Below, in pieces: positions 29,301-60,114 of a stretch of DNA of 64,000 bases. The DNA comes from Somniosus microcephalus (lineage: Eukaryota), in assembly GCA_052327205.1 (NCBI GenBank), contig CM126211.1, positions 90,334,001 through 90,398,000 on the forward strand. The letters run 5' to 3'. The notes beneath the pieces were generated by a model. The model was not told the DNA's origin and made no database searches. It saw only the letters and a list, made by a program, of their open reading frames with translations. The position numbers and the translations under genes are program-made. Position 1 is the stretch's first letter, and each line of letters opens with the position of its first letter.

Positions 29301-32300
29301 TTGTACTCAGTCTCCGTTCACATTTTTTTTAATTGCCAAGACCTAAGGCAATAATTAGACTTTTCCTTTACAATTAGTAACTGAATTGCAGACAGAAGAA
29401 AATTCTGTTCACATTTAAAGGAGGATTGAAATTTAACATGCAGCATTTTCCAGGCGAGACTTCCGTTTACACCTTAAGTGATTAACGTGAGGAATAAGCT
29501 GCCATCCATCTTGGCTCTCTGTGCCTGTTTTATTCCCTTAGCACATTTGGGTACAAGGAAATGACCCTTTTTATTTTCCAAGTTTATATAAACGAAGAGA
29601 GCTGTTAACTCAATGTGGATTGCAGAAGGAAAATACCATCTGATCCTACAAATGAGCTGCATGTACACAATGATTTACAACAATACTGCAAGAGCGGGAA
29701 TTGACGGAGACAGAAGGGTTCAAATAAATGGGGTCGGATACAAAACTGAGAACATACTAAAAACAAATATATCAGAAACCTCAAAGACTCCTTATTTAGT
29801 TGAAACAATACCTCTGAAGAAGAGCAGGTGAGTTTTCCTCAGAGTCCTGGCCAATATTTATCTCTCAACCAACACCACTAAAAAACAGATTTGCTAGTCA
29901 TTTATTTCATTGATGTTTGTGAGGCCTTGTTGTGTGCAAATTGGCTGCCACATTTCCTACATTACAACAGTAACTACACTTCAAAGGAACTTCATTGGCT
30001 GTAAAGCACTTTGGCATGTCCCAAGGTCAGGAAAGGTGCTATATGAATGCAAGTTCTTTCAAGACTTTCTTTTTGACTTTTTAAGTGCTTGTAATTAATT
30101 CAAAGCTGGTAAGGCAAGTCAAGATACAAAAATTGTTAATACTTACAAATAATGAAATAGTCGTTATCTTTTTTGAATTCTAGTCCCCAGAGGTTAGGGC
30201 TGAATTCCTGAAACTTGATAGTAAACTTGACATCTTGATCTGGCTTGTTGCAATTGAGTAATGGTGTGGGGCTAGGCACAGCATTGCAGCTGTCAGCTTG
30301 GTCTTTCGACACCATGTACAGCTTAAAGTACTCATACTGTCCAGTAATCTTGGAGTCCACCTTGGGACAGATAATGTCCAGTTTGTCTCCTATCTGCGGG
30401 TACATCACCAGTCCTTTACTTGGTAGGAACCTGAAAATAAAAACACAAGAGAGGAACACATAAATAAATGTGTTGTTGCTTGCCAAAGAACACAAAGAAA
30501 TATTCTGTTTCACAAGTTTCTTTTTTCCAGGTTTTTGCAGGAAGCTGGAACTTGATAAGTGACTGGCTGCAATAACAAAGTACATGAGGATGGGTTATTA
30601 AATGAAAGCAAAGGAAAAAATATTCCATTCAGCTCTATTTGTCGGACAGTCTCCCTTTTAATCCTGCCCGTCCCACTGCCCCACTCCAAAAAGTTAACTA
30701 TCAAAAGACTAACAAATGACTTCTATTCCTATATTTTAAGCTTGCTTGTCACATTATTAACTGTATTATAAACAAGAGAATATTGCTGTTTGTTGAACAA
30801 TTCAAAATAAAATTTGAAAAGTAATTTTTATTTTTCTTGTGATGTTCAGCATTATAATTTTACAGGCTGCCATGGCACAGAAGTAAGGAGATGAAAACAG
30901 ATCCTTGCACCACACAAGACAAGCGTTAATGTACATTTTTGGCCAGATATCTTAGGTTAGAATAGAATTTGAAAGCACTTTTTGCAACAGTTCCATTCCA
31001 TAAAAAGGTTCCACCCAAAAGGACTTTATAAATTGCAATAAAGGGCTTGTTGTTGCACAATTTGTTTTATTCGTGAAAGTGCATCCTGGTATATAGGCTG
31101 ACTTGTCTTGGGGATATATGCTCATAAGTTGCACTTGGTGCACTCATATCTGTACACTGTCACTAATCCTTGCCTTTAGATGTGTTTGCTCCAGTTAATA
31201 CTTGGAAGCAGCTCCTTAAACTTGCAGCTGCTGATTCAATATCCCCAAGGCCCAGGGCAAAGTGCCTTTGCCCCATGAAGCTGATTCACTTTTACACAGA
31301 ATCTAACCACAGCTGCACAAGACCAAAACTACAGAGCTTGCCAAACATTGCAACACGAAGCAGCATTTTACCCATTATGCAGCACGTGTGTCAGTTAGTC
31401 GATCTCTCCTGTAAGTTTATTTGCATACTAAGGATTCTGAGTGACACCTCAAGGGATTCATCTCCTCCAGTTTAATTGTATTCTGCTTTATAGAATGGAA
31501 CTCAACAGGAGTGAATAGCATTGAGATTCACCACATGATGTAAGGTGGGTTAAGTGTTTGTTGTTTTCCATACCATTTATCTTACGCAATGTTTGGTGAC
31601 ACTGTGTGGGAACTTGCGGTTTTCAAGATGACCTGATCGTGTCATCCTTCTGTGCATGCACCAGGCCACCAGATGACATCACAACTGTGTGTTGTCTAAA
31701 CTCAGGAGTGTCCCTATCTCTGTAACTTCCTCCAGCCCTACAATACTCCGAGATCCCTGCACTCCTCCAATTCTGGCCTCTTGCGCATCCCCGATTTCCA
31801 TCGCCTCACAATTGGCGACCGTGCTTTCAGCTGCCCAGGCCCCAAGTTCTGGAATTCCCTCCCTAAATCTATCTGCCTCTCTACCTCACTCTCCTCCTTT
31901 AAGGTACTCCTTAAAACCTATCTCTTTAACCAATCTTTCCTAATATCTCTTTATGTGGCTCAGTGTCAAAATTTGTCTGATAATGCTCCTATAAAGCGCC
32001 ATGGGATGTTTTGCTACATTAAAGGTTCTATATAAATGCAAGTTGTTGTTAGGACCGTGCATTGTCTCAACTCAGGAATGTAAAGAGCTTGTCTACAGCC
32101 TGACTGCCACTCAATTACACATTCTAGGCAGAATCCCCCCACCCCCCGATCAGCCATAATCTTATTGAATGGCGAAGCAGGCTTGAGGGACCAAGTGGCC
32201 TATTCCTGCTACTATTTCTTATGTTCTTATAATGCTGGATGAGTGTTTTCCAATTACATCGCCCACTACCCTGTGTTGTCTGTACAGCTGTATACTAGTC

Positions 32301-35300
32301 AAAACATGATTGCCAGCAAATACAGCCTTATCTTAATGTAAGTTACTTTGAGAAGCACAAGCCATGGGGACATGCTTTCTGTCCATGTAAAACCTATTTG
32401 TCTATCATTGGCATATTGTTTCGGAATCTAACCATTTAAAATCCTAAAAAACTATAGATGTTCCATGCTGGTCTGCGTTAATCACTAAAAAATATGCAAT
32501 GATGTTTACATCATTGATATACTTCAGTTTAACCTATCCCATTCTATTTTTGTTTTAGGCTGCTGGTTAAGGCTGCAATAACCACGCATTGCAATAAAAA
32601 CTCGCAAATAGCAATGGGCTGAATTTTAATGGGGAAGGTGGGTTGGGGGGTGGGGGGGGAGGGGCTCCGAGACAGTCGTGAACCCGGAAGAACGGGTTTC
32701 CAGCAGGACCTGTCGAATTTAAGGGCAGGGCCTTATTTGATAGGTAAGCCTTTGTTTCCTACCCGCAGCCAACCAGATTGAGAGGCTGGCTGGCTCCGAA
32801 AGGATAGGCCTGCGGCACTAGGCTGCACGGAAGAGGGAGGGAGGGATTGCGTGGGGGCCGAGTGGCAGCCGCAGCAGCAGCGGGGGGGGGGGGGGGGGGG
32901 ATTAAAGGAGGATCGGAGCAAGGGGCAGCTGCAGCAGAGGTGGGGGGTCCGAGGAGGATTGGGGGCGCAGGGCAGCTGCAGCAGCAGCAGCAGAGTGGGG
33001 GTCTGAAGGGATCGTGGGCTCGGAGCAGTTTGGGAAGGGCCAGAGGAGCGGTGGGGGTGGGGTTGGGCCTGGGGGGATTGGAGGTCTCGGGGGAACATTT
33101 GGAGATCTGGGGGGAAAATCAGAGGCCGGAGTGGGATGTGGGAGGGGGGGGGAAATCGAAGGTCTGGGGGGTGATCGGAGGTCTCGTGGAGGGTCTCCGA
33201 TCATGAGGGGTGGGTTAGATAGTGAGCCTGGATCCTGGAGGTAAGTGTAAAGGCACTTACCTCCTGGATCCAGCAGTTCTCACCTTACTTTAGCTGGCGG
33301 GTTTCACGAGACATGCAAAACCCAACCAACTAAAGTTACATTCAAAATGGAGGTTAAAGCAGAGGTTTCCACCCTCACTATAAAATCTAAATAGACAACC
33401 CGCCTCCTGGCAGCGGATTGGTCGCCCGCCCTGCCTCTATTAAAACCGCAAGTGGGCAGGTTGAAGGCGGGTTCAGGTCGGGATTCAGATTTTTAACACT
33501 TTAACTACCCACACGCCCCCAACCCACCTGTTTTTTTTAGGTTAAAACTCCCTCCAATGTCTTTGTTCATGAAATTATCAAAGGGAGCAACTTTATTTTA
33601 GGGATTCTTTTATCACTTTGGAACTAAAGTGGAATCATTTTAAGATATTATGATCAAACAAATGTGAACAAAGTCATTACCATAACTGGAGTGTAACAGT
33701 TCTGCAAGGTAAAATCCTGCTTAGAATCAACATATTCAAGACTAATTTGATTTAAGCGAAAAAGAGGTGTCCCTGAATTGATAAAAGGATTAAACTATAC
33801 CAGTGCACTGAGAAACATGCTGAATCACAGTAATTTCATATCACATGGGAGGCACTTATTGCCAAGTACATGGGAGGATTCCTTATATCATTAATGTTAT
33901 GCTCTATAATTTTTAATTAGTATTATAGCCTGATATAATCTTACACTGAGTTCTTTTTTAAATGAAGGAATTAATCTGCTCTGCTCCAAGTCAGCTTCTG
34001 ATATTATGATATCATGTGGTCAGGGACTGATCAATGTGCGAGACATAAAAAAATATGGCTGTGTAACAGCACAATCTATATTAAAGTACCTACCCCACCT
34101 TGATCAGAAATATGGAGACTAGGGGAAGGCAGTGTCACATTCATCTATACAAACCGTTAGCTCTTGGAAAAATCAGTGGTCTCACATAGATTACATTACT
34201 CTTATCCATTGTTATAATTGGTTTACGGTTACATCATTTTGTACAATTAAATCAAACTGCCTGCTCACCATCCCAATGCACAATCGTGTGTTGATTAAAT
34301 CTCTAACAATCCAATTGTTTCAATAACGTTTACTGAAGATTGTTAATTCTCATAATTACATGCAAAATAAAAATTGTTACTGATAGCATCATGAGAGATT
34401 AACACCCACTTGTAAGCATCACTGTACTATAGAAGATAGAACCCTCCATTGCCCAATCAACATTATTTTATTACCAGAACTAACCCATTTAAATTAAATG
34501 GATTAACACCAGTTATCAAAATAATGCCAATCAGAAAATCTGGGTTTGCACCCCCTATCCACCTTCACTGCCATAATCATTGCTCAAAGAAACTCACAAG
34601 CAAAAAGGATTCTGGGAAGTGACAGCATAAGAAGGCAGAACAAGAAAGTACCAATCAGCCCATCTAGTTCATAATGATCTAATCTGCCATTCAAAGCAGT
34701 AATCTAATCAGGGGTGGTGGGGGTGTGGGGGCGTGGTTAAGGTCCAGAAAACATTTACAGACTGCTCTCGAATACAGTGGTGGACAAAATATGGCCCGCC
34801 AAGTCATTCTATCTGGCCTGCTGGATGGGACAGAGATAGAACGTGAGCCAGAACTTGAGCTGCGCATTAGTCTATCCACTTTCACTTCTCGTGGTTCAGA
34901 GACCGATCCGAACTGCAGCCAAGGAACACAAAGTATGTAATACTTAATTCAAGTTATCAATCCGCAAAAGCGATTCTCCCCGGCCCGATTTTAAAAGGAT
35001 CCGTTCCGCAAATCTGGGCCCCAAGGGCAGATTTCTGTACCCAGAATGCACTGCACACTCGAATATGCCCTATCCATTTTAGAGTGGCGTCATGGCTGCT
35101 CATCTCCATGACTCTTTTACCCCGATTTCCCCCCTAACATTCCTCACCTTGAGCAGTATAATATAAACAGTGACTATTATAAAGGTTGGTGGAGGGTTAA
35201 AATTTTATACTGATATACCTGTAACACTGGCACAGTGGGCTCCGGTACTAGTTGAACAATGCCACCCAACTTGTGCCAAAACGGCTATGCCTGCCAAAGG

Positions 35301-38300
35301 GAACTGGAATGTTCAGTGCCTGCAGCTTACTTCACCTGACAACAGATCCTGGGGTCAGATTCCACTGGTTGGCAAGACAGCAACTAAATGGCACAAACTT
35401 AGGATAATCACAATAAGAATTAAAGGGGAAGTTAGAAAAAAAACCTTTAGATGGAGGGTGGTAAGAATGTGGAATTCTCGGCTACCAACCTGTTGTTGAA
35501 GCAGAGTCCATGGCATAGATTTTGACTTTATACAATAGTGACCTCAATGGAAATAAAAATCCTGACAGATGTAAAACGGGCTGCCGATTCATTATTACCC
35601 ATTTTACACTATCGCACAAAGTCAAAATCTACCCCCATACATTCTTTAAAACGTGATTTTGTTGGTTGGAAAGGGTATCGGAATTGAGCAGGAGGGTGGG
35701 ATTAGATGAGGTGGCTTATGTGGAGAACAACATCGGTTCAGTCTTGATGAGCTGAATGACACGGGCCTGTTCTGTGCTGGAACATTCTATGATATCATTG
35801 TAAATGGAAATGATTTTCTGGATAGATTATATTTGATCCTAAATGGGATTAGATTTTATCTGAGTTCAATGGACTCTTCTGAAATCAACTTACCAGTGCA
35901 ACTGTAAGAGTGTTTGGACCTGGGCCAGTGAACAGATCTCTTTCTATGTTCCTGATCTGTTGCCTCAGCTCCAGCTGCTACGCTTGAATTTGTTGTCAGA
36001 CTACCACTTTCCATAGGTTTGACGAGTAACAACGCTAGTTTGGTGATTTTAAATCTGGCACTGTTATACTGAATTTGCACTAACACAATATAACAACACT
36101 AATGTATGACCAGTAGCCTATTAGAGGTTTAATTTTAAATAAAATATAGTCAGCACAGTCCCTTTAACTCCCACTAGATGCCTTTAGCATGTTAGACTGT
36201 ATTACAGTATTAAATAGCTTAATGACATCATTTAGACAGAAGGCTCGGAGGAGACTATTTCTATCCCTATAGCAGAAGTTCTGCATAAACTGTGAAGATC
36301 AAATCCTTGTGAAAATCTAGCTCTGAGTTTTCTGACTGTAGCAAATGATTACTGATTATTGATCACTGAACGTGATTGTCTCCGTAGATATTTAACATAG
36401 GCCATTATGTGAATGTGGCCTGTCTGTGATCAGCTACCTATCAGCATCTGATTTGCACTTGAACAATTACCGTTGGTATTTGGATCATCATCATCTTTTA
36501 TAGTTAGGGCATCAGGAATGAAATGGGACTCTATGTAAGAAGCCGATCCTATTTTTAGAGCTTGCTAGTGGCAGCCTAACCAAGGATCATGGATCACTCC
36601 TCCTTAGGGGCTATATTCTGGAAAAAAAAATCTGCAATCATCTTTTTTCTTCCTAGTTACCCTTCAAATTTTCAGTAACTGTAATATAGACTGCCACTTC
36701 ATTTTCTAAAGTGTTAAACAATTTAGTCTGAATATAGCAATTTATTTCTTTAGTTGGTTTAATCAAGATGATAGATTGATAAATTAATCTATCACAAAAA
36801 TCCTTACTGCTTGGGGGACAATCTTTGGTAGCTTTAAGGAATGACATTTTATTGTATAATTGGCTTCGAAAACTGCTAGTGGCCAATTTTGGAAGTTTCT
36901 CTTTGCAGAAAATTAGCCTAGATCCACAATTACCAGAATATAGTCGAGCTTCAAATGTGGAGCATTGAAGAGATGCCAGAAAAATGTGCAATATCCTTCC
37001 TGAAGCCTTACTGAGTTATTCTGCATTTGCATTCATAGGGTCAGGTGCCCTCTCTTCAGCATAGCCAATAAATACTTCAGCACTGATCCTAGGAGATAGA
37101 GTTTGCATGGTTCTTATTACAGACAAGAAAGCAGCACGGCAGAAGATTAGCTAGCTCTGTAAGCGGTTCAATTTTTTTTTCATGCAGGTTTGTGAGCAGT
37201 GTACTTGTAGTGGGCAGTCATTTGGCATGAAAGCAAATGATTTTTAATAGAAATAAACCCCCAAAGATAATGGCCGGAGTTTCCTGCAAGCTTGCACCAA
37301 AACATCGGCGTAATGCTCAAGTTTAGCACAAAAGATCGAGGAAATTCGAAGATTATACATCGGTTTTTAAACTACGCCCGCGTTGCCTCGATGTTTTGCG
37401 CAGATTCCATGAAACATCTGCCCTTATTAACATAGCTCCGCCCCCACACAAAACACCAACTTGCGCAAATTTCCTGCGTTTACACTGTTTTTTGCAGGCG
37501 TAGATTTAAGCCAAAAACATTCAGATGCAGCAAGGGCCAAAGTCACTATTTAGGGAGTTTTACAATTAAAAAAAAAAATCTTACTTCAATCTGTACTGTT
37601 CTATATCTTTGAATGCTTTTTCATGGCATCATAAAATGTTACGTTAAAAATTGAAAAGCTTCCACAATTTTATTTTTTTTGAACGTCTGATGTACATAAA
37701 TAATGGTTTGATGGCTTCAAACTTCAATTTTCATAGATAAGGAGGAACTTAATGAAAGAATATTGCATTAGTTCTGCACTTTCCTCAGGCCCCGACTGCT
37801 TACACTGATTTTGCTTGGTTTATGTTGGTTTTTACGATCCAGTGTATGCTAATGAGACAGGGGTAATTTGGCGTAAGTACTAATTGGCAAGATTGACGTA
37901 GAAATCGGCGTCTTTTGCAGCATATCTTTTGATTTGCACTGATCCAGGAAACTCCAGGCCGTAATAAATACAAGATCCCATCGCAAGCTGCACACAAGTC
38001 CTGGAATGACTGAGGCGCTCGCAACTCAAATCATTGTCGGCAAACCATAGGCCGTAAATCTCAAACCAAGCAAATTAGTTATTCACAAAATTCAAAGCCA
38101 GAGGGTCCCATTTCGGCTTGGCAAACTCAAGGCTGTGCTGTTTACACTGACTTACGAACATATTTTTAATCCATTTATTTCTATTAAATTTAGATTTACA
38201 AGTCATGTTGATATTACATTTCTAACCTACATCGCTGAGAGATTAAATGGAACCCATAACTATGTGAGGAAACAGCAGCAAACCTTTGCAGGTATGGTTG

Positions 38301-41300
38301 GACCTAGTTATAAAAGGTATGGAACAAAACCTTTCCAAGCAATGTTAATATATCAATGCACTCTTCCTACATTCACTGTATAATTAAATTGTAAAATGGC
38401 TTCGTGAAATATATGTGTGACTGTAAACTCTTGAAAATACTTTTTCTTTTAAATCGCACATAAAATGGTGAGAATTGGAATGATAACAAAATGAGTGGAA
38501 CAATAAAGCACTGTTTATGTCACCTCTATTATAAATAAAAATCTTGTCAAAACCAGTATGAAGAAAGCAGATAAAGAGATAAAGAAATACTCTCTGCTGC
38601 AATATTCTCTCACTTGTATAGTCATGTTCTCAGGTATCCTTTTCGCCAAAAGTAATTAGAAAGGGGCAGAGTAGCACTCTTTTTTATGAGAAAAAGCAGC
38701 TGGATTGCTTCACCTATCATGAAAAAAGATTCCAACAAGTATATTTGGAGCTTTCATCAAAAATGCCACTTTGATGTCGAAGATTTATAGTCCTTATATA
38801 AAAAAAAAATCAGAACTTTTATTGGCTAGCTATGGTTCCCAGTTATGGTTCCTCTTTTCTCTAGTTTGAAAGAACTGTGGGTTGGCAAAGGTGAAATAAC
38901 ATGAAGCAATTGAATCTGGAGAGACACCTACCCAACTGTCATGGAACCAGAACGTTAATGGATTGCTGTGGGTTTGTGATAAGAGTACAGGACTTCTGAG
39001 GAGATGCTGGACATTCGGAACCGAGGCTCTGATCCAGTCAGGTAGACCAACTGCAGTTTGTACAGAAAGGCAGCAGATGCTAGGCTCTTATAAAATATAA
39101 ACAGATCATAACTAGAAGTGAAAGCTGCCTTCTGATGAACTGTGTAGAGGGGCAAACAACTCCGCATGGGCTTCAATGTGCCTTCCTTAAGCAAAGTGCC
39201 TAAACATTCTAGGGCAAAGAAAGCCAGATGGATCTTAATGAAAGCATCACACAGGCATGGAACCAGCCTCCTGCTCTGATGGGGAAATGGGTCTGGACAT
39301 GATTCCAGCACTCTCAGCTCCTACAAGCTGCAGTCTGGCACAGGTCCCAAGTCCTACACTGTAAAGTGGTAGCGAGTGAAATGGCTCTGTGTTTACCTTG
39401 TTGAGTTACGATACAATTACTCCATACATCGACTGCCAACGGTTAGGATACAAATTAATTTCCAGTGGCGAGACAAAGAGACCTCAAAATCCAAAAGAAT
39501 GTACTTATATAAATCATTTATACAAATTAATATTGCAACAAGGATTATTCAGCAAGACAAAAATCAATTAATGTGGCTAAAGAAGTTAAACTATTAAATG
39601 CTCCTAGATAAACACAGACATTACTCCTCCTAAAATCCCACAAGACACTTTCTTAAATTGCTCTACTAAACCAAACTGTTTATTTTGGTGTGTTTATCTG
39701 CTTAATAAAGACCAAATGCTTGAAGCTAGATACTCACTGAGGGTTTTGGTTCTCTGAGATTAATGTTTGAAACCATTTGCATTTTACATTAAAGTCTTTG
39801 AATGGCAGGGTAATACTTAAAGTGGGCAGGGTATTCTCAGTACCACTTTTACTTGATGCTGCCTTCAACACTGAGAAACCCAGCTTTAAAACATGAATGA
39901 TCATTTCTGCTTTAAATACAAGAGTAAATTAGACATGAGCTAAGCCACAGTTTTTAAAGATTTATAACATTGTTCTTGGTACAAATAACAGTAAGAATTT
40001 TATATACTCTATGTGGATGATTTAAAAATGTACTGTACTGAATTGTTTCATATCAGATCACTTGCCAGAATAACATGTAAACTGTTTTACTGAAAGGTGA
40101 CTGGAGATTTTGGATACTGTAAATGCCAAGTTTAAACAGCTCTTTGTAACTGATAACATGCAGATGCTATCAACAACCCAAACTATACAGGTATCACACT
40201 CAAATCACCCATTTTGGGCTAAAAAAAAGGACCATCACTGATAGCATTGCCACAAACATAATTTTATCTCTGTTGTTTCCTTGACAAGACCATGGAGCAA
40301 TTGTGTGGAATGATATATTTGATGAGGATAATCAAACAGAGCTTTGGGGTTATTCTGTTGGTGATCATTGTAACCTTTGCTCCAAGGCTGTTCCAAGATT
40401 ATGGCAATTTCAAGTTGGCCTGCTAATAATAGGCACATACATGGATTTCAAGAAGGACTGGCTTTGATACTTATCGTGGCTTGCTCCCTGTTATAAAGCA
40501 AATACCTTGTGAGCTGCCCCTGACCAAACACAGTCAATAAGGTTAATGCAAAGGATGTGATTTGCTCAAAAGAGAAAGGATAGGTGTTACAATGTTTTCA
40601 AGCATCATACTGGGAAAAGGAACCTTTGATATTGATGAGTGAAGATTAAAGAGGACTTCGGAAAGAGGTTCCACAGTGGATGGTGAGTTAGTGCAGGAAG
40701 AATTCATCCAACCAGTCAAGAAATGCATTTCTCTGGAACTTCACAATTTTAACTTTCATGGTTTTAAATGTCTTTATTTTTGTTTAACAGAGAAAGGCAA
40801 ACAGTTACAGTCCAGGTGCTACTTAGACAAAGAAGATTGCATTTTCACCTTGCATTGATACTCTGGGGGGTTAAAGTCAAGGGGCTAATTTTCAGCTTTA
40901 ACATTCCCCTCACCGAGACTCACCCACCAGGAGCACAGATTGAGTCATTAAGCACAGTGCCCATGACTTTCCATCCATTGGCGGACCAATGCCCGGGTTC
41001 CCGATATGAGCCCCCTCAGCACACAAGACTCTGCCTGCAAGGTTGAAGATGAAAAGTAGCAGTAATCAGCTACTTACAATCCACACCCAACAATGATTAT
41101 TCATCATTTCTCATGCGCCACTGAATCAACATAAATGTGAGCAAAGTTTGTTCATCCTGCTATGGAGTGTGTAAACATAGTAGAAAAGGGCTGAAGGCCA
41201 GCAATGAAAATACTGATCTACCCATTAGACACTGCTTGTGCTTAGCTTCCCATTCCTCTTGTCAATACTCACATGCGGTAGATATAAGGAGATAAAAAAT

Positions 41301-44300
41301 TCCAATTCAGCCACTCCTGAGACATGCCAGGGAGCTCATATCACAAAATTGTACATTCAAGGCCTGTGATGTTCCATCCATTCATTTTAGTGCAGCATCC
41401 TGGCCTGGAAGTGTGCAAGTTTAAGATGTGCACTCCTGTTGTGGGCCAGGAGTGGTCACATCAGAATTTTTATCCAAAAATCATCCATTTTTGACTCTGG
41501 TAACTGATTCTAGATAACTGCCTTTTTGAATTTTAATATTTTAAGTGGCATAATTCATTTTTCAGCAAAAGTGCAATTTAAACCTTCATACACATTTTGT
41601 ATATTCAGTAATGCAACTTTAAGACACAAGGCCAGAAATGTCCTCAGATCTTATCCCGCCGTATTGCATAACTTCACTGGAGGTGCATTTAGAGCTGAAC
41701 CCTTTACTGTCCTTTTAGTGCCCTAGCAGAGAGGGAGACCTGGCTTAAAGGTCTCCATGCTGGTAAGAAACTGAATCTGCTTTCTATTTTCCCTGGATCT
41801 TCCTTCCCCTGTAAATGAAAATGTATTTGCATAACTAACTTGTATAAATAAATATTTTTAGCCATGTGTCTGGATATATAAAATTAATTATTTGCAATAA
41901 GGTCCCAGTCTCACAAACTGAATAAGTTACATTTGGTGTTTAGATGCCAAGGTTTTAAGCTACAGCTTTGAAACCTGGCTATACTAGGGACTCATCAGAA
42001 CAAATGCAATCAAGAGAGTAAGTGATGCAGAAGAAATAATTCAGAAGCTGCTGGATGGAATTAATGTATCACTAGACAATTACAGTGTGTTTTGTTATGA
42101 GAAAAGCACATTGAGAAATATATTAAAAATTAACTGATGTTAAATGATGTGAGGGGTTTAAATTTCTATATAATGGTGCAAATTAACTTATCGGAGTTGC
42201 TGTAGACTTGGAAGGTAATAGTTTATGAATTGTGAGAAAATACAATTGCTTTGAGTTCTAAAATGCTAGAAAATGCAGCAAATAAAGTGTCAACACACGT
42301 CATAATTTTCTGGGGAGAGGGAGAGGGAAGTTATACCTCAAGCCTTCCTAGAAAAGAAACCTCATTTTAATCCCTCACACCCCCTACCCCTGCACCCCCC
42401 ACCCCCACCCCCCACCACCACCTTCAGAAATCTCTATCTGCCACTGAGGAAAGTTGCCTTCAACATTGAATCAGCAAGCAGCAATTTGCTAACTGGCTTA
42501 TCAACATTTTTTGGAAGTTTTCTTTTGTTTAATTTCCTCTCTTCCCCCAGAGTATGTGAAATGTCTCATTTCTAGCTAACAGACTAAATCTATAACTATG
42601 CCTCCACCTGCATCTTTGATGATAATTCATCAGCAAATCTTTGATGAAATATGCCCCCTCTGTTCAGCTCAAAGATATCAAATAAAATACTCCCTTTTTT
42701 GATTTTTCTGCACAGAAGTAGAAGACTGAGTGATTTCTCCAATAACGTACTTCACAAGCACAAAATGCTTTTCCACCTACCTTTTTGCTAAGGTTCATTG
42801 ATCCATTTTTGGAATGCTAGGAATCGTCAGAAGTGCTAAACACAGACAAATTATCTGTTAGCGTTTCCGCCCCAGATTCCACCATTGTTCACGAACCTCT
42901 AAATTTGAATACATTGACCAAATGGAAGAATTTCAGCCTCTCAGTTTGCAATCTGGCAAAATGTTTACACAAATTGTTTTGTATTAATTTTCATTTTGAA
43001 CTACAGTTATACTACCATCTCTCTCCATGAGCAAATCAGAATATTCTAAACAGCTTGCTCTATCCATATTTGTAATTAACAGAGTGGCATTAAGGTTACA
43101 TGTCTTCTTGAGATTGTTTTGCCTTCAGGTAAAAACATTTGAAGCTCTGACATTGACTTAGTGAGTTTGTTCGACGAGTAGCTGGGACATACAGAACAAG
43201 AGGATCCCAACTTTGATCCTCAGCCTGTGCTGAGTTTGCTGATCCCAGTTGTAGTGCAGTTAAGGGTGCTGCAATTGGTTTCGGTGTCTCTGGGTTCGGG
43301 AGGGGGAAAAAAATCAGCCAGCTTCAAATCACCATCCATTGACACCCCCCCCCCTCCCCTGCCTGAGTGGACATTGGGTCAGGACAAATCAAGCTTGGCT
43401 ACTCACTGACAAGGCTCACAGGTGAATAATAGCCACTTGAGTGAGATACTGGAGGGTGAACAGCACTGAATTCTAGAAGGAGTCAATGCCTTCAGGAGAG
43501 GAGTGACAGGGAGGCAGTGGAAAAAACTGGTGAAGATTATTGGCAAAACAAAATGTGCCCAATTTTTCTCGACCTTTTTTTGCATGTGCAGAGTGACACA
43601 GAAACCTTGAAAACTCATCAGAACCTCATTAAGACTCTCACTAACAGAAGCTATTTGAAACCTGATTGTAAAAATGAATCTTCTTCAAGAAAATCACTTC
43701 TGTTATCATTTAAAAGTCCAAATCTGAAAACCTCCTTCCAAATGGCACAGAATGGATCTGTCCTGCTGATAAACTAACTAGCAGCCAATAAAACAGTTGT
43801 CACTTGCTTGCACCTGGAGAGACCCCAAGGTACTCCCAAAGCTCGGCTCCACTTGCCCTTTTATGCCAAAGCCTTTTCAGGATTGAGCACAGGTTCAAAA
43901 TTTAACCCTTTTCCAAATACAACTGGCTCTTGAAAAGCAAAAAAATTAAGAAACCATCTTGCTCATGCAGGGATTTCTAGCGTTCTCCCATCTCCACAAT
44001 CTCCTCTGTACAGAATTTAAATTCCTTTTATGAAAGATTGTGCATTTGTCATTTGATACTTCATTTAGTCTTTCTCCTGATTTCCTGAGACTGAGAGAAG
44101 GCCAGCTGGATATACTTATTGGGATCATGGTGGGAAATGGCTGGCTTGGATACTGAAGATCAGGCTAGTTCTGCTGGGTAAGAAGCAGCACTCGGAGGAA
44201 CATAGTTAACAGAGCAGTACAGGAACAATGTGGCTTGTTTATCTTTGCCTCTCTCATGGAGTGTGAGACCAAAGCCTGTGCCTGAAAGATGGCTGCATCA

Positions 44301-47300
44301 AAAGCGCTCTGTTTTCCTTTCAGATAACCTCACCCCACCAATCCTCCTGCGTTCTGTTGCTACTCAGCATGTTCCTGTCTGTGGCACAAATAGATGAAAG
44401 AAACAATCTCAAAGTGAGCTTAATCCGACCGAATAGCTGCTGCTGGGCCAGGAGTTTTTAAAAAAGCCTCCGAACTAACCCATGGTACAATCTGGGGCTT
44501 TAGGCATACAGGACTTCAATAAAGCCCCAAATTAAATCTACCTTTTTCATATTACACACAATGAATGAACAAGAACTGAGCAACTTTTCTTTACCATCCT
44601 CCATCCCAAGCCAAAAAATACAGGCCTTTTATATATCCTAATCCTAACCTGCTCTTATATAGTAAAATGCTCAATAGCTCTGAACACTGCTTCCCTCCTT
44701 TCCTTTTCAAATTACAATGATAGATGTGTCAGTTTGGACATGAACAAAATCTATATGTTGCCTTGGTAACCCCTGGTTCCTGCTTATATTTTGTATATAA
44801 AATAGGTGCATTTGCTGTACTATTTATCAGAAAGGAATAGACCGGTGGTTTCCTTTAGAAACGATCGGATTACTACAGCTGATTTCTTTGTGTCTGTTTA
44901 TTTCAATCGTGCTAGATCCGGCTCTTTCTATTCAGTCCCTTGATTTACATTACTGCTCTGATCTGCAGTGTAATCCTTTTATTGTCAATAACTTGAAGGC
45001 TGATTTCCTTTTAAAGAAGATTGTGTTATGGCTTTCTCTTAATTTTATATTCCACACTTGAAAGAGGTCTCTCTGAAGAAAACACATGGATGCATCTACA
45101 AAAAATATTGAATGTGTCAAACAAGTCAAATCCATATCAAAAAATATGCACATCAACATAGGGAAACTGGATGCAGTGGATGAAAGGTCATCAACCTGAA
45201 ACATTAACTCTGTTTCTCTCTCTCCACTGACGCTGCCTGACCTGCTGAGTATTTCCAGCATTTTCTGTTTTTATTTCAGATTTCCAGCATCCGCAGTATT
45301 TTGCTTTTGTGTTAGGGAAACTGGGTGCAGTTTTACTTTTGGAAAATATATAAACATTTCTCAATCCTACTTGAAGTTTAATTACAGAAAAAAAGAATGC
45401 ATTTAATTGACTTATTGTAGCTTGGGTCTGTAAGGATATTCAGGGGAGAAAACACATCCAAGGGAGATTATTACTTAACTCTCAGTGGTTCGGGGAACCT
45501 GTTTGTCAACTCTTCCGCTCTGCAGGTTTTGCACATAAATATCCAGCTTTGAGTGTGTTGAACTTTGAAATATAAAACCGCAACAAAAGGCTTGTGATAC
45601 ACACAGTACATCATGGTAGACCAGTTTATGAGGAAAAACCTCGACTTTATTGTCATTACCTATGTTTTTCTGGCACTACTTATGCACAAAATTATCCAAC
45701 ATCAAAAATACAGTTTTTGCCTGGCCTAACTTCTGCAATGAAGCCACAGAAGTTGCATTTTTCTTTGTTACTTTTCTCCTTTGTAAGCTAAAACAAATTA
45801 TAAGATGATCCGCACCCACACAAACACCATAATGTCTAGATTCCTTTAATATTGCATAATTTTAATCAACAATTTGATACATAAATTATATGGAAATCCC
45901 TCAAGATAAAAGAGGACAAAATAATCTCCTTTCCGATGAGAGCTCAACAGTCAAACGGCGCAACTGGACATATTTTCGTCCCTTAATGTATACAGATCTG
46001 CCTTACGGGACAATAAGCAATTGGGTGCACTACCTTTCCCACAATTGATCTGGAGGTAGATAGGATTGAGAAATAGGTTTGCATATTTGCCAAAATTAAA
46101 ATTCCTCAGGGGTTAAGCATGAGAGTGGGGGAGTAAAGTCTGGAGACAGGCTTCGCTTGATTTTTTTTTGCTTTAAGGCAGCTGAACCTTCTACATTATC
46201 ATGCAATTTTACAGGCAAGGACATGGGACACATACCACAACAATGCCACTGCTGTTAGCAAGTACAGGTTTGTTTTGTCATACTCCTTTAATTGGTATTT
46301 ACGACTTCTCTTAACATTCCCTGCTGATTCCCATGTACAGTACTTTGTAGCAATCTATTTTTATCAAATTATTGATTTCTTCATAGGAATGTAACAACTT
46401 AAAATTCTCCTGACAATAAAATATCAGCCTTGTTTTAATAAGCATAGCAGTACTTTCTAAAAGCAGACACAAATCGTCATGGAATTGGAGACCTGTCATT
46501 CAGTTTAAGAGCATTAAAGACATCAAGACAATTATGTACTGTTTTAAGTCTAATCACATACCCATCCTATCACATGCTGTTGTGACACCAGAAGGAGGGG
46601 GCAAAATTGCACCATTATGCATAAGCCGCGTTTCCTGGTTAATGGTGGTTCCTGCTGGAACACAACTAAAGCCTTCTCAATTTAAAAAAAAACAAGGCTC
46701 TTACTTCTATTGGTTCAATTTATCCATAGATATTCAATTTGTTTAATAGAATTTTGTGGAAGTGCACACATAAGGCATTTGTACTTATGCAAGATCTTTC
46801 TTCCTTTTTCCTCTTCCCAAATACTAAAACAAGATGTGCCCAGATATAAATGCAGTGCTTAATTCTAGGGCCTACTCAAAATGCAGTCAATATGTACCTG
46901 TTTACCTACAAATAAAGGAATGTTTAATACAATGAGACCAGTTTGTAGCACTGAATGATCTGCTTGAAAGGGCCCTAGTTCCTTTTCTCTCCAGTTTTGA
47001 AGAAGGGTCAAACCCGAAACGTCAACTCAAATTTCTCTCCACGGATGTTGCCTGACTTGCTGAGTTTTTCCAGCATTTTCTTTTGTTATTATGCTTGAAA
47101 GGGCTCATCAGTCCTATTTAATTTAAAACTGCGCTGACGCATAAGGTTAATCCTTGGGGCTAACTAATAGAGGTTTCCCCAAACTTAGTAACAGGACCCT
47201 ATAAATTCTCTCCTGAGATATTGCTCTATGAATGTGCAACATAATCATATCAAATTCCTATTTTAACAAAGGCATTAACCTGCTTATTTTATACAGTTTA

Positions 47301-50300
47301 ATGTCACCCTTAATATTGCAGACAGATAAATTTGTTACAAGCATGTTAAGCCATTAAGTGTTCATATGATAATATTGCACAATTTAATTCCCAGGCTTAT
47401 ATAATTTATGTTTGCAGTTGTCACGATGCAGAAGTTGAGTCTTTCTGTTCTTGAAATCTGATTATATCAATGTGTTCCGTGTCCAGCAACACCCTTGGAC
47501 TTTAAGCAACTTATTAATGAAGCAACATATCTAAATTCAATTAAGAGAAAAGATTGGGTGCAGTCGGAACTGGAACTTTTATTTAATCAAGATGGCAAAG
47601 AAAGGATCTTTCTCAAGTAACTAGAAACAAGTGTGCAGTACATTTTCAAACCAGGTTTGGCTCTAAAGATCCTTAAACCACCTGACATTTTTTAAATGTT
47701 TTAAATAATTATATATCTGCAGAACTTTATAATATTTACGAAAGTGAATTTACACATCTCCACCCACAGAAAAGAGGCTACCTGTAGTTTGTTGTGGATA
47801 GGATGTGGTCATTAAAGTTGGTGACATACTGAAATAACCTTTCTTCAAGTGGAAACCTGGACAATCTGATCTTTGCTCACCTCCCACACGCACTTTCCAA
47901 CGGGGGCCATCAGTAGTTGGACCCTGGCTGTTTCTCCTCCCCAGCTTAGGGGCACAAAAACTAACTGTAGCACCCCCACTGCCATCCCAGGTGACATCAG
48001 TTGACTCTATATCACACTGTGTGCTGAATTTACCTACTGAACCAAGCCATCAAAGGAGCCTGACAATGCAATAATATTAATAAACATTCTACTGCATAGT
48101 AGGAAAACTGTCTCTGTTTTAACAGTAAACATACAACTGCCAGGAATGAATCATTTGAGCTATTTGAGGTGGCTGGCCGTGAACTGAGAATATGTTCATT
48201 GACCTAAAATCAAATCTCAGTATTTCATTCTGCCATCAAATAGTCACATCAGTGCACAGCACACTCTTGTTTAAATTATGCCTATGAATTTTGAAAGCCT
48301 CAATAACGCAGATGCTGATGTGTCTTCAAAATGCAAATGGAATAACTTGTCATCTGAGAGCTGTCCTCTCTCTGAAAAGTGACATGCTTTTTAATGAAGT
48401 TAAATCCATTGCCTGGCCATTCTGGGTATGTGAGCATAAAGCACAGTCTTTCTGCTCAGCACCAGTGTCGACATTTCCATTCCTCATGCTCTGTGTGCCA
48501 TGAGCTGCTACTGTCTGTTCACGGTCCCCAGCCTCCAAGGAGACTAATAGCTGGGATATTTTGTCTAACATAATGACTAGTCTTTTTCCTTTGCGGTTAG
48601 GTTTATTATGCTTTTATCGAGGAGTATCAAGGGTGTTGCCTCTACCTTTGATGATTTGAACTAAACAAACAGGCTGTGGTAAAATGTGCTGTGCACAGAA
48701 ATTGGTAGAAATTATATTTTACTCTCATCTCTGAATTTCTTTCAGACAGAGAATTGTGGCACTGAGATTGAACAGAGCAAACAACAACCTTTCCCAACAA
48801 ATTTCACAGCATCCTCTAAACACACTACTCATGACAGGAATTAGAAAAAGAAACACATTTTACTGCTAACTTAAGCAATCAAACCAGATTCAGAAGCAAT
48901 ACCAGTAATGGTATCTGTACAGACCTCTCACAAAACTCTCACCTTAAAAGCACGCTATCGTTCCTAAAGACTCCAATGATTTAGCATTTATTATTATTTT
49001 CTGAAATTATGAATAATTATAGTTTACCACATATAACAAAACAGTCCTCTTGTTTGGTCAGAACAGAATGATTTTGTCACTGAGTTTTCTTTGTTAATCT
49101 ACTTCCTGGTAGCCCACAGAATTTCAATAGAAATATATTTTGTCAGGAAAAACTTCTATCAACAAGGGAAATACAAAAGAATAATTCCTGATCATAAGAG
49201 CTGCATCTTTATTATCATTCCCCCATGACAGGAAGGATATTAGAGCCACAGAAAACGTGCAGTGAAGAATGATACTAGGAATGAGAATGAAAAATTGAGG
49301 CTTTTTTCACTGGTACAAAAAAGATTAAAAGGGGGATCTAACAGAGATTTTCAGAATTATGAAGGGTTTTGGGAAGGGGTGAGTAATAAAAAGACACTTT
49401 TCACTAACTGGCGAATGGATAAAGAGGAACAGACTCGAGATTATCAATAAAGAAACAAAAAAGGTAAGTAGTGAATATGTATTAACAGATGGTCATTAGA
49501 ACATGGAATGCCTTAGCATGAGTAACTATTGAGATAGAGATTCTAGCATTATTTATAAGGGAATTGGACAAGCATTTGAAAAGAAAGAATTTTTACGGAA
49601 ATGAGAAAAGGATAGGGAAATTAGATTAGGATAGATCCAGTTGAACAGCTAGCACAGACTCAATGGGCCGAGTGGCCTCCATATGTGCTGTAATTTACAT
49701 GGTTCTATAATCAATACAATAATATGGTCTATTTCAGTACATTATGAACACAAGTAAATGGAATAACTAGCTATACTGTTGAGACTTGCATCATTTGCTT
49801 TCAAGTAGTGATGAAAAGGCGAATGAAAAATTCAGATCTTTCTATGGTTATTTATGGGCAACAACTCCTCACCAAATAAATATGTTTCTTTGTATATATG
49901 TTATTTGAAAATTAACTTTTTTGTACTCTTGTATATCTGGAAAATGTTAATTGTCAAACAGTTCCAATTATTTATGAAATTTCTGCCCATATCCTGAGGT
50001 TTTACTGCAACAGAGATTTGTTGCAAAAATGAGCAAGCAGCATCAATTGGAGGGCAGTAAATGTGCGCAAGACCACTGTGTAAGTACAGCCCCCAGTGCA
50101 GTGCTCACCAAAATGCCAACAACAATTCTTTAGTTTCTAATTGTCATTGACTGCATAATATTACCAGTGCTCATGAATAAGCATAAGACTGCACCTTTGT
50201 TACTGTGATAAGGCAATTAAGTTTATGATGAGATAGAACTGAAGGGAAAGAATATAACCCGGGGACAAAGTGATAAATAATTTGCTGTAAACCCTCATAA

Positions 50301-53300
50301 GTAAAATTAAAAACCATTTCATGACAGATTTTTTTGGAAGGGGAGAGATTTGTTAAAATTAATTTTATACACATTGTCCTACTATTTTATGGAATAAATC
50401 ACCTGATCTTATCACTGATTGAAAATATGAATTCTACTTCCATCCCTTTGAGTTCCAAGAGTTACAGAGCTAACAATCTAGCAAGATAGTCTAGTATATA
50501 GGGATAAAAAGGAGCACATAACATAAGTTACATGCATTAGTGAATTTAACAATGATTGATCTATGCTTCCTGTAAATACAGTAAAAGCATTTGAGTAACA
50601 TTACAGCAAGCTAGCAAAAATGCTCCCTTCTCTCCTCACTGTGAGCAAACAGGCAATGAACCTATACTTCAGCAAATGCTCCTGTCTATGAACAGGATGC
50701 TCATTAATCTCAACATACTACATGGACATTCTCTGGTGAGATTTTATTGCATCAAACCAATGAGCTGTAGAAAAGGATCAGTTCCCTGAAATGCATGAAG
50801 ACACTTTCTGACACATCGCAAAGCAGACTGCGCAGATCTGACAAGCCCGCCCTTGTCAGGCAGTTTAAGGGCCACCTTGAAGCAGGCCCTTGTAAACAGA
50901 TGCACAGCATAGCGAAAATGCAGTAACTTCTAAGCAAAGTTTTGTCTCCTTAGGTTTGCTAACTTTGGTTTGGATGTATTCCTGGAGGTTTGGTGAGATG
51001 ACTTCCCACCTCTAACCACCCCACCCGGTCAAACAGCCGTTTCTCCCCATCTCCAATATTTTAATAACTAATTAACGCAAGTGCTCAAAGAAAAAGAGAA
51101 AAACACACATTTTTTATGCCCCTGTGATTTTTCTCCTGGGTTGCTGGCAGCAGTGTCCAGGAGATTCATCTTTAATTCCTGGAGACTTGGGGGCAATCCT
51201 GGGAGGTTGGCACCCTATGTCTCCTGCATATATTAAAGGTAGTTGGTTAGTAATGGTGGTGCTTTGATCAATGCAATAAACCACTCAAAGTCTCTCACCT
51301 GAAAACAAGAATACTGGTAATGTACCATCAGGTGCAATATTCCAATTATTCTGATGGGATTACTCCATTCAGATTGTTAAATTGTCCCAGAATGCTTGCA
51401 CAATCTGGCAACGATTACAGAATACAAATTCCTTTTTCACCCCGACTTGTAGGAAATAAAATTTTCGAAACGGAGAAAATATCAATAACCCACAAGGAAA
51501 AATGGCTAGACAGCTATTGAGTCCGAACTCCTGTTGAAGGGGTTGGCTGCTTTCAGCATCTGAAGAGTGACCTCTGTAGGATTGTACTATTGCCGAGATT
51601 TGCATCTCTCCCCTGTAGTGAGCTAAAGAGCTGCACTTCAGAAATAAACCTCGATCATCTGACTGAAATTTCCCTTCGCTTTTCATTAGAAGTCTTCCAT
51701 TTTTTTTTCATTATTTAATAACTAGCCCCAGAATTTCTAATTCAGCAATATTCTACTATTTTGTTTCCCTCTTGACTACAGCTATTAGAAAACACTGCCA
51801 ATTTAGTTTGTTGTGCTCCAAGTTTGGTATTTTTATTTTGTAGATCGATATGAACACTGCCACCGATACATTAACAATACTGTATATCTAAGTTGAACGA
51901 TATATTAAACATTACAGCTTGTTTAAATGGACAAATATTCAGACCCGCTCAAGCGCTATGCCGCAAAATTAATATTTAACCGCAAAATACCAATGCTGGG
52001 CAAACTTTAAATTTCGCAAACGTAATGCCATACAAGATCTGATTACCTATCGGTCAGAAAAAACCCGAGTTAAAGGATGTGTGTCAGTTTTTTTAGGAGA
52101 GAATTTGAGAATATTATCAGGTTTACCGCAAGCACCAACTTGATCCGTCAGGTTTGCACGGCTGGCTATGATGATCATTTTAAGATCTAAAATCTTTCAA
52201 GAGCGCACTGTAACCAAATGTTTTAATTCGCACAGGATGCCCCAGAACCGAACAACTGGATACAATGCTCGACTGATTCAAGCATTTTCTGCACCAGAAG
52301 TTGTATTTTTCTCTATTTGGTGATTATGTATCTTTAACCATTGAGTATAGTTATTAACCTGTTGCTGTTGTCCCAAAGGAAGCGGTGGATGGGATGACGG
52401 TGCTCGCTTGGAGGAGACTGGAGAATGATTCATCTAAAATCTCCTCGCAACTTTTTTATCCCTTTTAGTGGTTGCTGACTGGGATACTTCTGCAACCCAT
52501 TCTAAGTCGAGTTGTTGAAGTAAGACTCCGGTAAATAGCCGAGGAGATAGCTGAACGTGTCGGAGAGCGGCTGGACGGCTGCTGTGCTAAGAGCGAGAAA
52601 TGTTTCCCTTCCTTGAGAAATAGATTCTCCATTGGCGATCACTCGAACACTTGCAATATGTTCTTAAGTTTTAAATTGACTATCTTCTCCCACCCAAGCA
52701 CTGAGCAAAAGGTTCACACCTGCCGGCCGACTCCTAAATTAAGATGAGATCACGTTCTATAAAGTCTGGGGCCAGGGAATAAGCCCGTCCTCTGGATTTT
52801 ATGAACTTTTTATTTGGAACATGTGGTGCGTTAAAAGCAAGTTTCCACAACTTTTTCTTTCCAACGTGCGGAAGAAAATTGACGTAACTTTTATTGAACG
52901 AAAGTGTCACTTGGCTGAAGATAAATGGCGAGGCTGTAATGTGATTTCTCAATCAATTTTCCAGTTTTTTATTCTGTCCCTAAATCTAATCCAAACCTGG
53001 TTTAAACTCCATCGATCCCTGATTTACAGGAACAAGCAGCCTTTTCCAGCGGCACCTCCTCCGTCACTAACTCGCAGTTTTATGTGGTGTGAATGTTTTT
53101 TTTATATAAAGAAAACACATAATAACCTCCAGAGTCTGCTCTTGACAAAGAGACAGAGCCCAGAAGCAAACAAAGTTACATTTCGCACTCTTACAGGCAA
53201 TTTGGATATCCCGCCATTTGTAGCGCGGAAATATTTATTTTTTCACTTTGCCTTTGTAAGCGAACGTGTATCAGCCTTGACCAAACAGGCAGCATTAAAA

Positions 53301-59906: not shown

Positions 59907-60020
59907 CCTTTCCCACATTACAACAGTGACTCCACTTCAAAAGTACATCATTGGCTGTAAAGCGCTTTGAGACGTCCGGTGGTCGTGAAAGTCGCTGTAT
60001 AAATGTAAGTCTTTCTTTCT
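59907..60020 (+). mobile_element. DeuSINE 3' fragment
   Basis: CATTACAACAGTGACT..CATTGGCTGTAAAGCGCTTTG..TATAAATGTAAGTCTTTC. Confidence 0.85.
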
Positions 60021-60114
60021 ATATTGCCAGAGTTTCATGTACACCATTATTTAAGATGTATTATAACTGGATTACTTAAAATGTTTTATAACTGGATGGA
60101 TGGTAAGGTGAATT

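What the first reader, a model, noticed from the sequence alone, without database searches (positions are those of the whole stretch)
46961..47104. TSD-flanked ~100-135 bp retroelements carrying a minimal hammerhead ribozyme (four copies in the EFNB2 introns)
Seen: four short elements (4706-4840 +, 26977-27072 -, 45178-45312 +, 46974-47091 +), each with its own 10-19 bp target-site duplication, variable 5' ends and similar T-rich 3' ends. This pattern indicates target-primed retroposition of a tiny non-coding RNA. This copy reads AGUU-UUGAAGA-A-GGGU-CAA-ACCC-GAAAC-GUC-AACU, a type I hammerhead core (CUGANGA...GAAA...NUH) with stems I and II and only a palindromic ACGU for stem III. Established: minimal, dimer-dependent hammerheads occur in the pseudo-LTRs of Penelope-like elements and in retrozymes, and an extra A after A9 is a known natural variant. 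Inference: these are either extreme 5' truncations of a Penelope-like element or an independent high-copy retrozyme-like SINE family in sharks, at about one copy per 16 kb here. The general phenomenon is known; this family's status is not verifiable from the window.
Basis: partly seen in the sequence, partly recalled or inferred. Interest (0 to 1): 0.75.

Follow-up and report, generated by a model that had tools for sequence, protein, structure and literature searches.

The report
Penelope retroelement stumps with hammerhead motif
Four short, duplication-flanked insertions in the introns of an ephrin-B gene belong to a very abundant repeat family and are likely the broken-off tail ends of Penelope-like jumping genes, whose small hammerhead ribozyme motif is already known, so this is an ordinary member of a described class.

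Summary
The window has exactly four copies, with TSDs of 10-19 bp. For the copy at 46974-47091, two related organisms each have a contig with the empty site: 131 bp (the element plus one TSD copy) are absent.

The repeat family is very abundant (65,000-80,000 contigs per run lie on the stretch holding two copies). Family-wide it shows Penelope-like element (PLE) signatures: two fixed 3' ends about 34 nt apart (the PLE 'tail'), inverted 5' junctions, a minimal type I hammerhead matching the published PLE consensus, and a splice-acceptor-like tract at helix I.

Only this copy keeps a whole core. It has U3 and lies antisense to the host gene; the other three are truncated or mutated. All copies span the cut site, so they likely come from uncleaved RNA, which argues against retrozyme circles.

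No RT/GIY-YIG ORF could be linked because no genome was held. Whether the parent is a full PLE or a short parasite stays open. The scan's earlier notes report similar PLE stumps in other genomes (AI notes, unchecked). Verdict: new member of a known kind, low interest.

The parts
46961..46973 (+). c4 left TSD, 13 bp
   Evidence: identical to 47092-47104; one copy only in X9 and X18 contigs
46974..47091 (+). c4 element, short 3' end, younger subfamily; intron 1 of the ephrin-B gene, antisense
46979..46994 (+). pyrimidine tract plus CAG, splice-acceptor-like, overlapping the 5' arm of helix I (function inferred)
   Evidence: pyrimidine tract plus CAG at the same place in loose-end consensuses of RNA run X21 and DNA run X18 (table 7)
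46993..47027 (+). minimal type I hammerhead motif: U3 variant, extra A after A9, 4-bp stems I and II, ACGU palindrome in place of helix III; predicted cut after 47023
   Evidence: matches the consensus in Cervera 2014 Fig S3; activity untested
47092..47104 (+). c4 right TSD
45159..45177 (+). c3 left TSD, 19 bp (1 mismatch to 45313-45331)
45178..45312 (+). c3 element, older subfamily, 5' end inside the first hammerhead box, carries the tail
   Evidence: 5' junction bridged in X18 record 9
45276..45310 (+). optional 3' extension of about 34 nt (PLE 'tail') between the two family-wide 3' ends
   Evidence: loose-end peaks at 45275 and 45308-45310 (table 7)
45313..45331 (+). c3 right TSD
26964..26976 (-). 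c2 TSD, 13 bp exact (other copy 27073-27085)
26977..27072 (-). c2 element, c4 subfamily, short 3' end, U3 and G12A, stem I cut to 2 bp; intron 2, sense to the host gene
27073..27085 (-). c2 TSD, other copy
4696..4705 (+). c1 left TSD, 10 bp exact (other copy 4841-4850)
4706..4840 (+). c1 element: about 11 nt of filler, homology from 4717, decayed hammerhead, 9-nt deletion, tail present
4841..4850 (+). c1 right TSD
1901..54980 (-). host ephrin-B gene (exon 1 near 54960, exon 2 near 30150-30430, exon 3 near 10200, last exon below 2365); context only
   Evidence: (Pfam Ephrin, E 1e-32)

Best explanation
The four TSD-flanked repeats are insertions of one abundant family and are likely extremely 5'-truncated, inactive copies of the 3' end (pseudo-LTR) of a Penelope-like retrotransposon. 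Shown: insertion with TSD, high abundance, two 3' ends, inverted junctions and the hammerhead pattern. Inferred mechanism: the element's GIY-YIG endonuclease nicks the target. Its reverse transcriptase starts inside an uncleaved RNA at one of two sites, about 70 or about 104 nt past the hammerhead cut site, which gives the short end or the tail end. Synthesis stops after about 95-130 nt, at or just beyond the hammerhead, and repair duplicates 10-19 bp of target. The hammerhead would serve the parent element as a dimer-dependent motif. In these solo copies it is predicted to be inert: three are broken, and c4 is single and antisense to the host gene.
For: Empty site with one TSD copy in 2 of the 2 other organisms laid (table 8). 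Loose 3' ends peak at 45275 (583 contigs in X1, 615 in X9) and at 45308-45310 (812+575+1348 in X1; 716 and 1375 in X9; 927+701+1534 in X18), followed by unrelated flanks (agreement 0.36-0.38). The spacing fits the 30-40 bp optional tail of PLEs (PMC8557442; PMC3846280), which maps to two RT start sites in vitro (PMC11167929). RNA reads laid on c4 run on into tail-like sequence, so the c4 subfamily also has tailed copies (553 reads, agreement 0.46). Opposite-strand joints between 5' positions appear in all three DNA runs (table 5), as for inverted 5'-truncated PLE copies. The hammerhead fits the metazoan PLE consensus; a U3 core with G8 is listed for a PLE-linked Saccoglossus motif. The c3 subfamily keeps C3 upstream (table 7). 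Pair 10.1-11.1 is G-C in c2/c4 and A-U in c3. An acceptor-like tract abuts helix I, where the D. virilis Penelope intron ends. Conserved sequence continues upstream of c4 in 436 RNA reads (agreement 0.93) and upstream of c3 in 553 reads (0.71). Most PLE hammerheads elsewhere are solo and read as truncated PLEs. Penelope-like elements are expanded in whale shark introns.
Against: No RT or GIY-YIG ORF was linked. None lies next to the copies among the 52 frames of 100 aa or more (only 5 window frames were scanned against Pfam), and no genome is held. The element's open frame found only two short look-alike proteins (71 and 98 aa, no Pfam family) and two unrelated hits, and nothing among longer proteins. 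In X18 the upstream consensus decays into AT-rich letters about 20 nt above the box (agreement 0.45), which fits a short master as well as extreme truncation. Only 24 of 1353 loose-end rows and 15 of 353 joint rows were shown. The TSDs are not strongly AT-rich (46-70%), whereas the anole enzyme prefers AT-rich targets. The hammerhead fold is not the energy minimum (monomer -4.9 vs -5.9; dimer model -8.1 vs -16.1 kcal/mol).
Confidence: 0.65

Rival explanations
1. The copies come from a short (about 150-200 nt) non-autonomous master RNA derived from a PLE pseudo-LTR. It would be copied in trans by PLE reverse transcriptase and endonuclease, as a SINE-like parasite of PLEs. The chemistry is the same as in the best explanation; only the parent differs.
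For: All four 5' ends lie within about 45 nt of the cut site. The X18 upstream consensus fades about 20 nt above the box. Abundance is very high. Non-autonomous PLE derivatives are known (Chlamys MRC1; Xenopus retrozyme families matching pLTRs).
Against: The 5' ends of the four copies all differ. RNA reads continue upstream of both c3 and c4 into conserved sequence for about 40 nt, limited by 101-nt reads. Heavy 5' truncation is the PLE norm.
Confidence: 0.22
2. They are integrated monomers of a non-LTR retrozyme: tandem hammerhead repeats that self-cleave, circularise and are reverse-transcribed.
For: Type I hammerhead, low GC and TSDs longer than 4 bp fit the definition in PMC7229834. One chondrichthyan among 35 genomes has retrozymes.
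Against: No tandem array covers any copy (0 of 9 TRF rows). Copies span the cut site instead of starting at it. The 3' ends are fixed and run into unrelated flanks. The hammerhead is minimal, not canonical. No RNA joint going back appears among the 15 joint rows shown, and no place has many RNA ends (tables 5 and 6; weak evidence from one cDNA library).
Confidence: 0.05
3. They are 3' fragments of an ordinary LINE (CR1/L2-type) or of a tRNA-derived SINE that it mobilises, and the hammerhead-like pattern is incidental.
For: TSDs and 5' truncation are shared with LINE products. Stem II of c2 resembles a B box with 1 mismatch.
Against: That B-box match is at chance level (6 seen, 5.6 expected). 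No A box lies in any copy and no tRNA gene in the window. There is no poly(A) or simple-repeat 3' end. Two discrete ends with an optional tail are reported as not seen in non-LTR TPRT. The descriptor chance rate is 5 of 200 windows.
Confidence: 0.05
4. The c4 hammerhead is an active or domesticated intronic ribozyme acting on the ephrin-B pre-mRNA.
For: c4 keeps all boxes and both stems. Domesticated intronic hammerheads exist in amniotes.
Against: c4 is on the strand opposite the gene and absent from both relatives. It is a monomer without helix III; monomers of this type did not cleave in vitro. The only sense copy, c2, has G12A. RNA run X21 has no depth on the flanks.
Confidence: 0.02

Closest known systems
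Minimal hammerheads (min-HHR) in pseudo-LTRs of metazoan Penelope-like elements (Cervera and de la Pena 2014, PMC4209133)
   Same: Type I core, extra base after A9, palindromic 15.2-16.2 pair in place of helix III, U-rich upstream, U3 variant seen before, thousands of solo dispersed copies.
   Different: No shark among the 40 species of Fig S3 (supplementary file 1 not searched). Stem II is short (4-5 bp). No ORF-linked copy is shown here.
Endonuclease-positive PLE insertions with optional tail and inverted 5'-truncated copy (PMC3846280, PMC8557442; anole Poseidon PAc, PMC11167929)
   Same: Optional 3' extension of about 34 nt, 8-19 bp TSDs, 5' truncation, inverted junctions, hammerhead 70-105 nt upstream of the 3' ends, templates uncleaved.
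   Different: These four copies are single-armed and only 96-135 bp long. The clade (Poseidon or Neptune) cannot be assigned without the RT.
Metazoan non-LTR retrozymes (PMC7229834; bioRxiv 10.64898/2026.07.22.740005)
   Same: Non-coding, type I hammerhead, long TSDs, proposed PLE origin and dispersed monomers.
   Different: Not tandem, shorter than 150-450 bp, minimal hammerhead without tertiary-contact loops, ends not set by cleavage.

Membership tests
Penelope-like element (EN+) insertion | Linked ORF with telomerase-like RT and GIY-YIG endonuclease | tested here: inconclusive
   None beside the copies; protein and DNA searches gave no link; no genome held
Penelope-like element (EN+) insertion | Optional 30-40 bp 3' tail (two 3' ends) | tested here: met
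   Loose-end peaks at 45275 and 45308-45310; 2 of 4 window copies tailed
Penelope-like element (EN+) insertion | Variable 5' truncation with TSD | tested here: met
   Four different 5' ends, TSDs of 10-19 bp; empty site for c4
Penelope-like element (EN+) insertion | Inverted 5'-truncated copy adjacent in some insertions | tested here: met
   Opposite-strand joints in 1-15 contigs per row in three DNA runs (table 5); not in the four window copies
Penelope-like element (EN+) insertion | Partial-tandem arrangement forming a pLTR around an ORF | not testable with these tools
   Needs the assembly
Penelope-like element (EN+) insertion | Intron and internal promoter in the pLTR | tested here: inconclusive
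   Acceptor-like tract at helix I; no donor or spliced read seen
PLE minimal type I hammerhead | CUGANGA-H box, stem II, GAAA, palindromic 15.2-16.2 pair, U-H, stem I | tested here: met
   c4 fits with U3 for C3 (precedent); c3-type family keeps C3 in loose-end consensuses; c1, c2 and c3 individually do not meet it
PLE minimal type I hammerhead | Self-cleavage as a dimer or with protein help | not testable with these tools
   Needs a bench assay; folding energies do not favour the fold
Rfam hammerhead families | Covariance model hit | tested here: not met
   0 hits at gathering in 64 kb; none at E up to 10 in 46900-47200
Non-LTR retrozyme | Tandem repeats with a hammerhead in each unit | tested here: not met
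   3' ends run into unrelated flanks; window plus four runs only, so arrays elsewhere are not excluded
Non-LTR retrozyme | Abundant circular RNA | tested here: inconclusive
   One RNA-seq run, no back-joint among the rows shown; library not suited to circles
tRNA-derived SINE | Pol III A and B boxes at the 5' end | tested here: not met

The most novel reading that the evidence does not exclude
A short, non-coding, hammerhead-bearing RNA has become an independent SINE-like parasite of Penelope machinery. It has a defined 5' end at the splice acceptor, subfamilies that replaced each other between lineages (the U3 subfamily expanded recently), and a doubled 10-nt motif, 29 nt apart, that sets the two reverse-transcription start sites. 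Its tens of thousands of dated copies would then give a natural map of what PLE reverse transcriptase recognises.
Probability: 0.15. Interest if true: 0.5.

Novelty: new member of a known kind. Interest (0 to 1): 0.22.

Why it matters
If the best reading holds, little changes. It adds a cartilaginous-fish-type family to the known list of PLE hammerheads and warns that such solo copies are not working ribozymes. The family's value is as material. Its very many short copies, two sharp 3' ends and lineage-specific insertions suit tests of PLE internal priming (so far shown in vitro for one element) and use as presence/absence markers.

Tried and rejected
Whole-genome analysis: no genome held.

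Rfam: no hit.

Pattern scans for a contig linking the repeat to an ORF:
- Metagenomes: 0 and 6 hits. All 6 are 21-29 nt matches in loci of 60-67% GC with no further similarity, rejected as chance.
- Viral contigs: 0 in three scans.
- Prokaryote genomes: 0 in two scans.
- Phages: 0.

Test of whether the element's open frame is a PLE ORF start: 9 candidates, none scored; 4 hits, none with RT or GIY-YIG. Both are weak negatives.

Other checks:
- Folding z-scores were uninformative.
- The B-box resemblance in c2 was rejected as chance.
- No RNA holder was listed, which is no evidence either way.
- Summed contig depth (about 10^6 over the elements against mostly 3-30 on the flanks) was not converted to a copy number; the tool says it is not one.
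- Skip joints between c3 and c4 were treated as paralogue mapping artefacts.
- Loose 5' ends at 45217, 45232 and 47034 were treated as alignment breaks, not true ends.

Look-ups that gave nothing: earlier-finding searches by sequence and place. Lunse 2017 (PMC5785218) is not held. PMC12602865 gave nothing relevant.

Full report
1. The observation. An HMM of the four finds only these four in the window (E 8e-40 to 1e-30; next hit E 1.3). c2 and c4 are 92.5% alike over 94 nt, c1 and c3 83%, and c3 and c4 79%, so there are two subfamilies. The TSDs are 13 bp exact (c4, c2), 19 bp with one mismatch (c3) and 10 bp exact (c1). A flanking repeat of 12 bp or more with up to one mismatch occurred in 2 of 1500 random segments. 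The host is an ephrin-B gene on the minus strand (Pfam Ephrin, E 1e-32; exons). c3 and c4 lie in intron 1, c2 in intron 2 and c1 between exon 3 and the last exon; only c2 is sense.

2. Insertion shown directly. I laid 4 of the 24 listed runs on 44950-47350 at 80% likeness. In both runs from other organisms, one contig passes from 46960 to 47092 with no letters between (X18 record 14, positions 1655/1656; X9 record 21, 3979/3978). The 131 missing bases are the element plus one TSD copy. c3 is older: X18 record 9 runs 34 nt into it. Contigs in X9 and X18 that start inside its tail overlap it by only 24-25 nt, under the tool's bridging rule. Summed depth over the c4-type 5' part falls from 1.8 million (X1) to 0.45 million (X9) to 0.013 million (X18), while the c3 type stays at 1.8-4.9 million. 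This fits a recent expansion of the c4 subfamily. In all, 76,057, 79,989 and 64,870 contigs were laid per DNA run, with flank depth mostly 3-30. The family is very abundant, but the tool's depth is not a copy number.

3. The hammerhead. My descriptor (allowing C or U at position 3, written with the target in view) hits only c4 on either strand; 5 of 200 shuffled windows gave a hit, and strict C3 gives none. The pattern fits the consensus for metazoan PLE minimal hammerheads in Fig S3 of PMC4209133, which includes a PLE-linked motif with U3 and G8 and many with U17. At family level, loose-end consensuses show an intact C3 box upstream of c3-type copies (553 RNA reads, agreement 0.71; 527 X18 contigs, 0.45), U3 in the c4 type (295 reads) and GAAAC-GU conserved (table 7). 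Pair 10.1-11.1 is G-C in c2/c4 and A-U in c3, one compensatory change. Against activity: c2 has G12A and 2 bp of stem I; c3 starts at G5; c1 starts at G8 and lacks GAAAC. Rfam has no hit. Folding is no better than shuffles, and the hammerhead fold is not the minimum as monomer or dimer. Published monomers of this type did not cleave and dimers cleaved poorly; the anole motif needs its protein. A strict published filter rejects any core change, noting that rejects are mainly mutant copies in repeats.

4. Penelope signatures.
(a) Two 3' ends. Contigs leave the element at 45275 (583 in X1, 615 in X9; no X18 row shown) or at 45308-45310 (up to 1348, 1375 and 1534 per position) into unrelated T-rich flanks (agreement 0.36-0.38). 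An optional 30-40 bp tail is described as characteristic of PLEs and not seen in non-LTR TPRT. It corresponds to two internal RT start sites in the anole element. There the start sites lie 85-92 nt past the hammerhead cut (my subtraction); here the ends lie about 70 and 103-105 nt past it.
(b) Opposite-strand joints among 5' positions (for example 45194 to 45232: 8, 5 and 6 contigs) match the inverted truncated copy of PLE insertions.
(c) A pyrimidine tract plus CAG overlaps the 5' arm of helix I in c4 and in the loose-end consensuses. In D. virilis Penelope the intron ends at helix I. No spliced read was seen.
(d) 436 RNA reads continue upstream of 46975 into one sequence (agreement 0.93), so longer versions exist. 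This may be a single expressed locus.
(e) Every copy spans the cut site, so the templates were likely uncleaved, as found for the anole element in vitro.
Only 24 of 1353 loose-end rows and 15 of 353 joint rows were displayed.

5. What is missing. No RT or GIY-YIG ORF was linked to the repeat. No genome is held. Eight collection searches gave nothing or chance matches, and two protein searches with the element's open frame gave no PLE protein. So it works like a PLE end on four anatomical tests, but membership is not closed. The upstream consensus in X18 fades about 20 nt above the box, which fits either extreme truncation or a short master.

6. Expression. RNA run X21 (same species label) laid 7082 reads, all on the two elements and none on the flanks. 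Only 285 are 99% alike or better, 81% run on into unlike sequence, both strands are present, and no place has many ends. This fits passive read-through of many paralogues and gives no sign that c3 or c4 is itself transcribed. A cDNA library is a poor test for cleaved or circular RNA.

7. Mechanism and rivals. Best reading (0.65): nick by the PLE endonuclease, internal priming at one of two sites, early stop near the hammerhead, and TSD formed on repair; the parent is a full or long PLE. The same chemistry with a short parasitic master gets 0.22. Retrozyme circles get 0.05: no tandem array, ends not at the cut site, and a minimal rather than canonical hammerhead. A LINE or tRNA-SINE fragment gets 0.05. 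A domesticated ribozyme gets 0.02.

8. Novelty. PLE hammerheads, their solo dispersed copies, tails and inversions are in print, and Penelope-like elements are known to be expanded in whale shark introns. I found no paper describing this family's hammerhead: of seven searches, the two that asked for hammerhead together with shark or cartilaginous fish returned one irrelevant mention and zero papers, and Fig S3 and Table S1 of PMC4209133 list no shark. The library lacks most subscription journals and Repbase/Dfam. The supplements of the 2026 preprint, which covers one chondrichthyan, were not seen and may list it. Earlier notes of this scan describe similar PLE stumps in other genomes. They are unchecked AI notes, and sequence look-ups did not tie them to this family.

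9. Papers seen. PMC4209133: main text parts 1-2 of 4, supplement file 2 parts 1-2 of 3 (file 1 not searched). 10.64898/2026.07.22.740005: parts 1-3 of 5. PMC11167929: parts 1-2 of 4. PMC3088659: passages and section 8. Passages only: PMC6155905, PMC8557442, PMC3846280, PMC7761336, PMC6765202, PMC7229834, PMC8969392, PMC12602865, 10.1101/443036. PMC5785218: not held, title seen in reference lists only.

10. Verdict. Observation confirmed, interpretation partly supported, new member of a known kind, interest 0.22.

Noticed in passing
window 45252-45261 and 45281-45290: The same 10-mer occurs twice, 29 nt apart, each copy 14 or 18-20 nt upstream of one of the two family 3' ends. c1 has lost the first copy by a 9-nt deletion. 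Candidate signal for the RT start; untested.
   Followed up: partly
window 27074 (c2) against 46994/46995 (c4): Homology of c2 to c4 begins at the first base after the acceptor-like CAG. One case with 2-nt microhomology; it could be chance or a spliced template.
   Followed up: no
window 45274-45275 joined to 45310-45311 (table 5): Opposite-strand joints link the short end of one copy to the tail end of another (up to 15 contigs in X1, 6 in X9, 9 in X18): tail-to-tail pairs, unlike the usual head-to-head inversion.
   Followed up: no
window 45193-45354 and 46975-47136 (run X21): 63-69% of RNA depth has the first mate on +, which in most stranded libraries means antisense to the element. Three of four copies here are antisense to the host gene, and sense strands carry acceptor-like tracts (4 in sense, 0 in antisense), so selection against sense intronic copies is possible.
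   Followed up: partly
window 4690-4720: The first 11 nt or so of c1 repeat letters of the flank just upstream, like a templated filler at the 5' junction.
   Followed up: no
window 2803-3432, 5424-5771, 17847-18233: GC-rich interspersed repeat family, copies 75-92% alike in both orientations.
   Followed up: no
window 11164-13371, 17044-17486, 25855-26329, 27843-28303, 29815-30061, 59908-60042: Repeat family of about 450-475 bp with at least seven pieces, about 80% alike, SINE-like.
   Followed up: no
window 18504-19064, 62821-63165, 63532-63936, 7888-8455: Frames and repeats that look like 3' remnants of LINE ORF2 (recalled resemblance); Pfam hit only for 63532-63933 (ALKBH8_N).
   Followed up: partly
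proteins P0002 and P0003: Two predicted proteins in the public library contain the translation of this repeat (79-81% identity, no Pfam family), likely spurious gene calls on copies of the element.
   Followed up: yes
window 47218-47298: Small depth peak in all three DNA runs (127-309 against 5-14 in the bin before it), another minor repeat next to c4.
   Followed up: no
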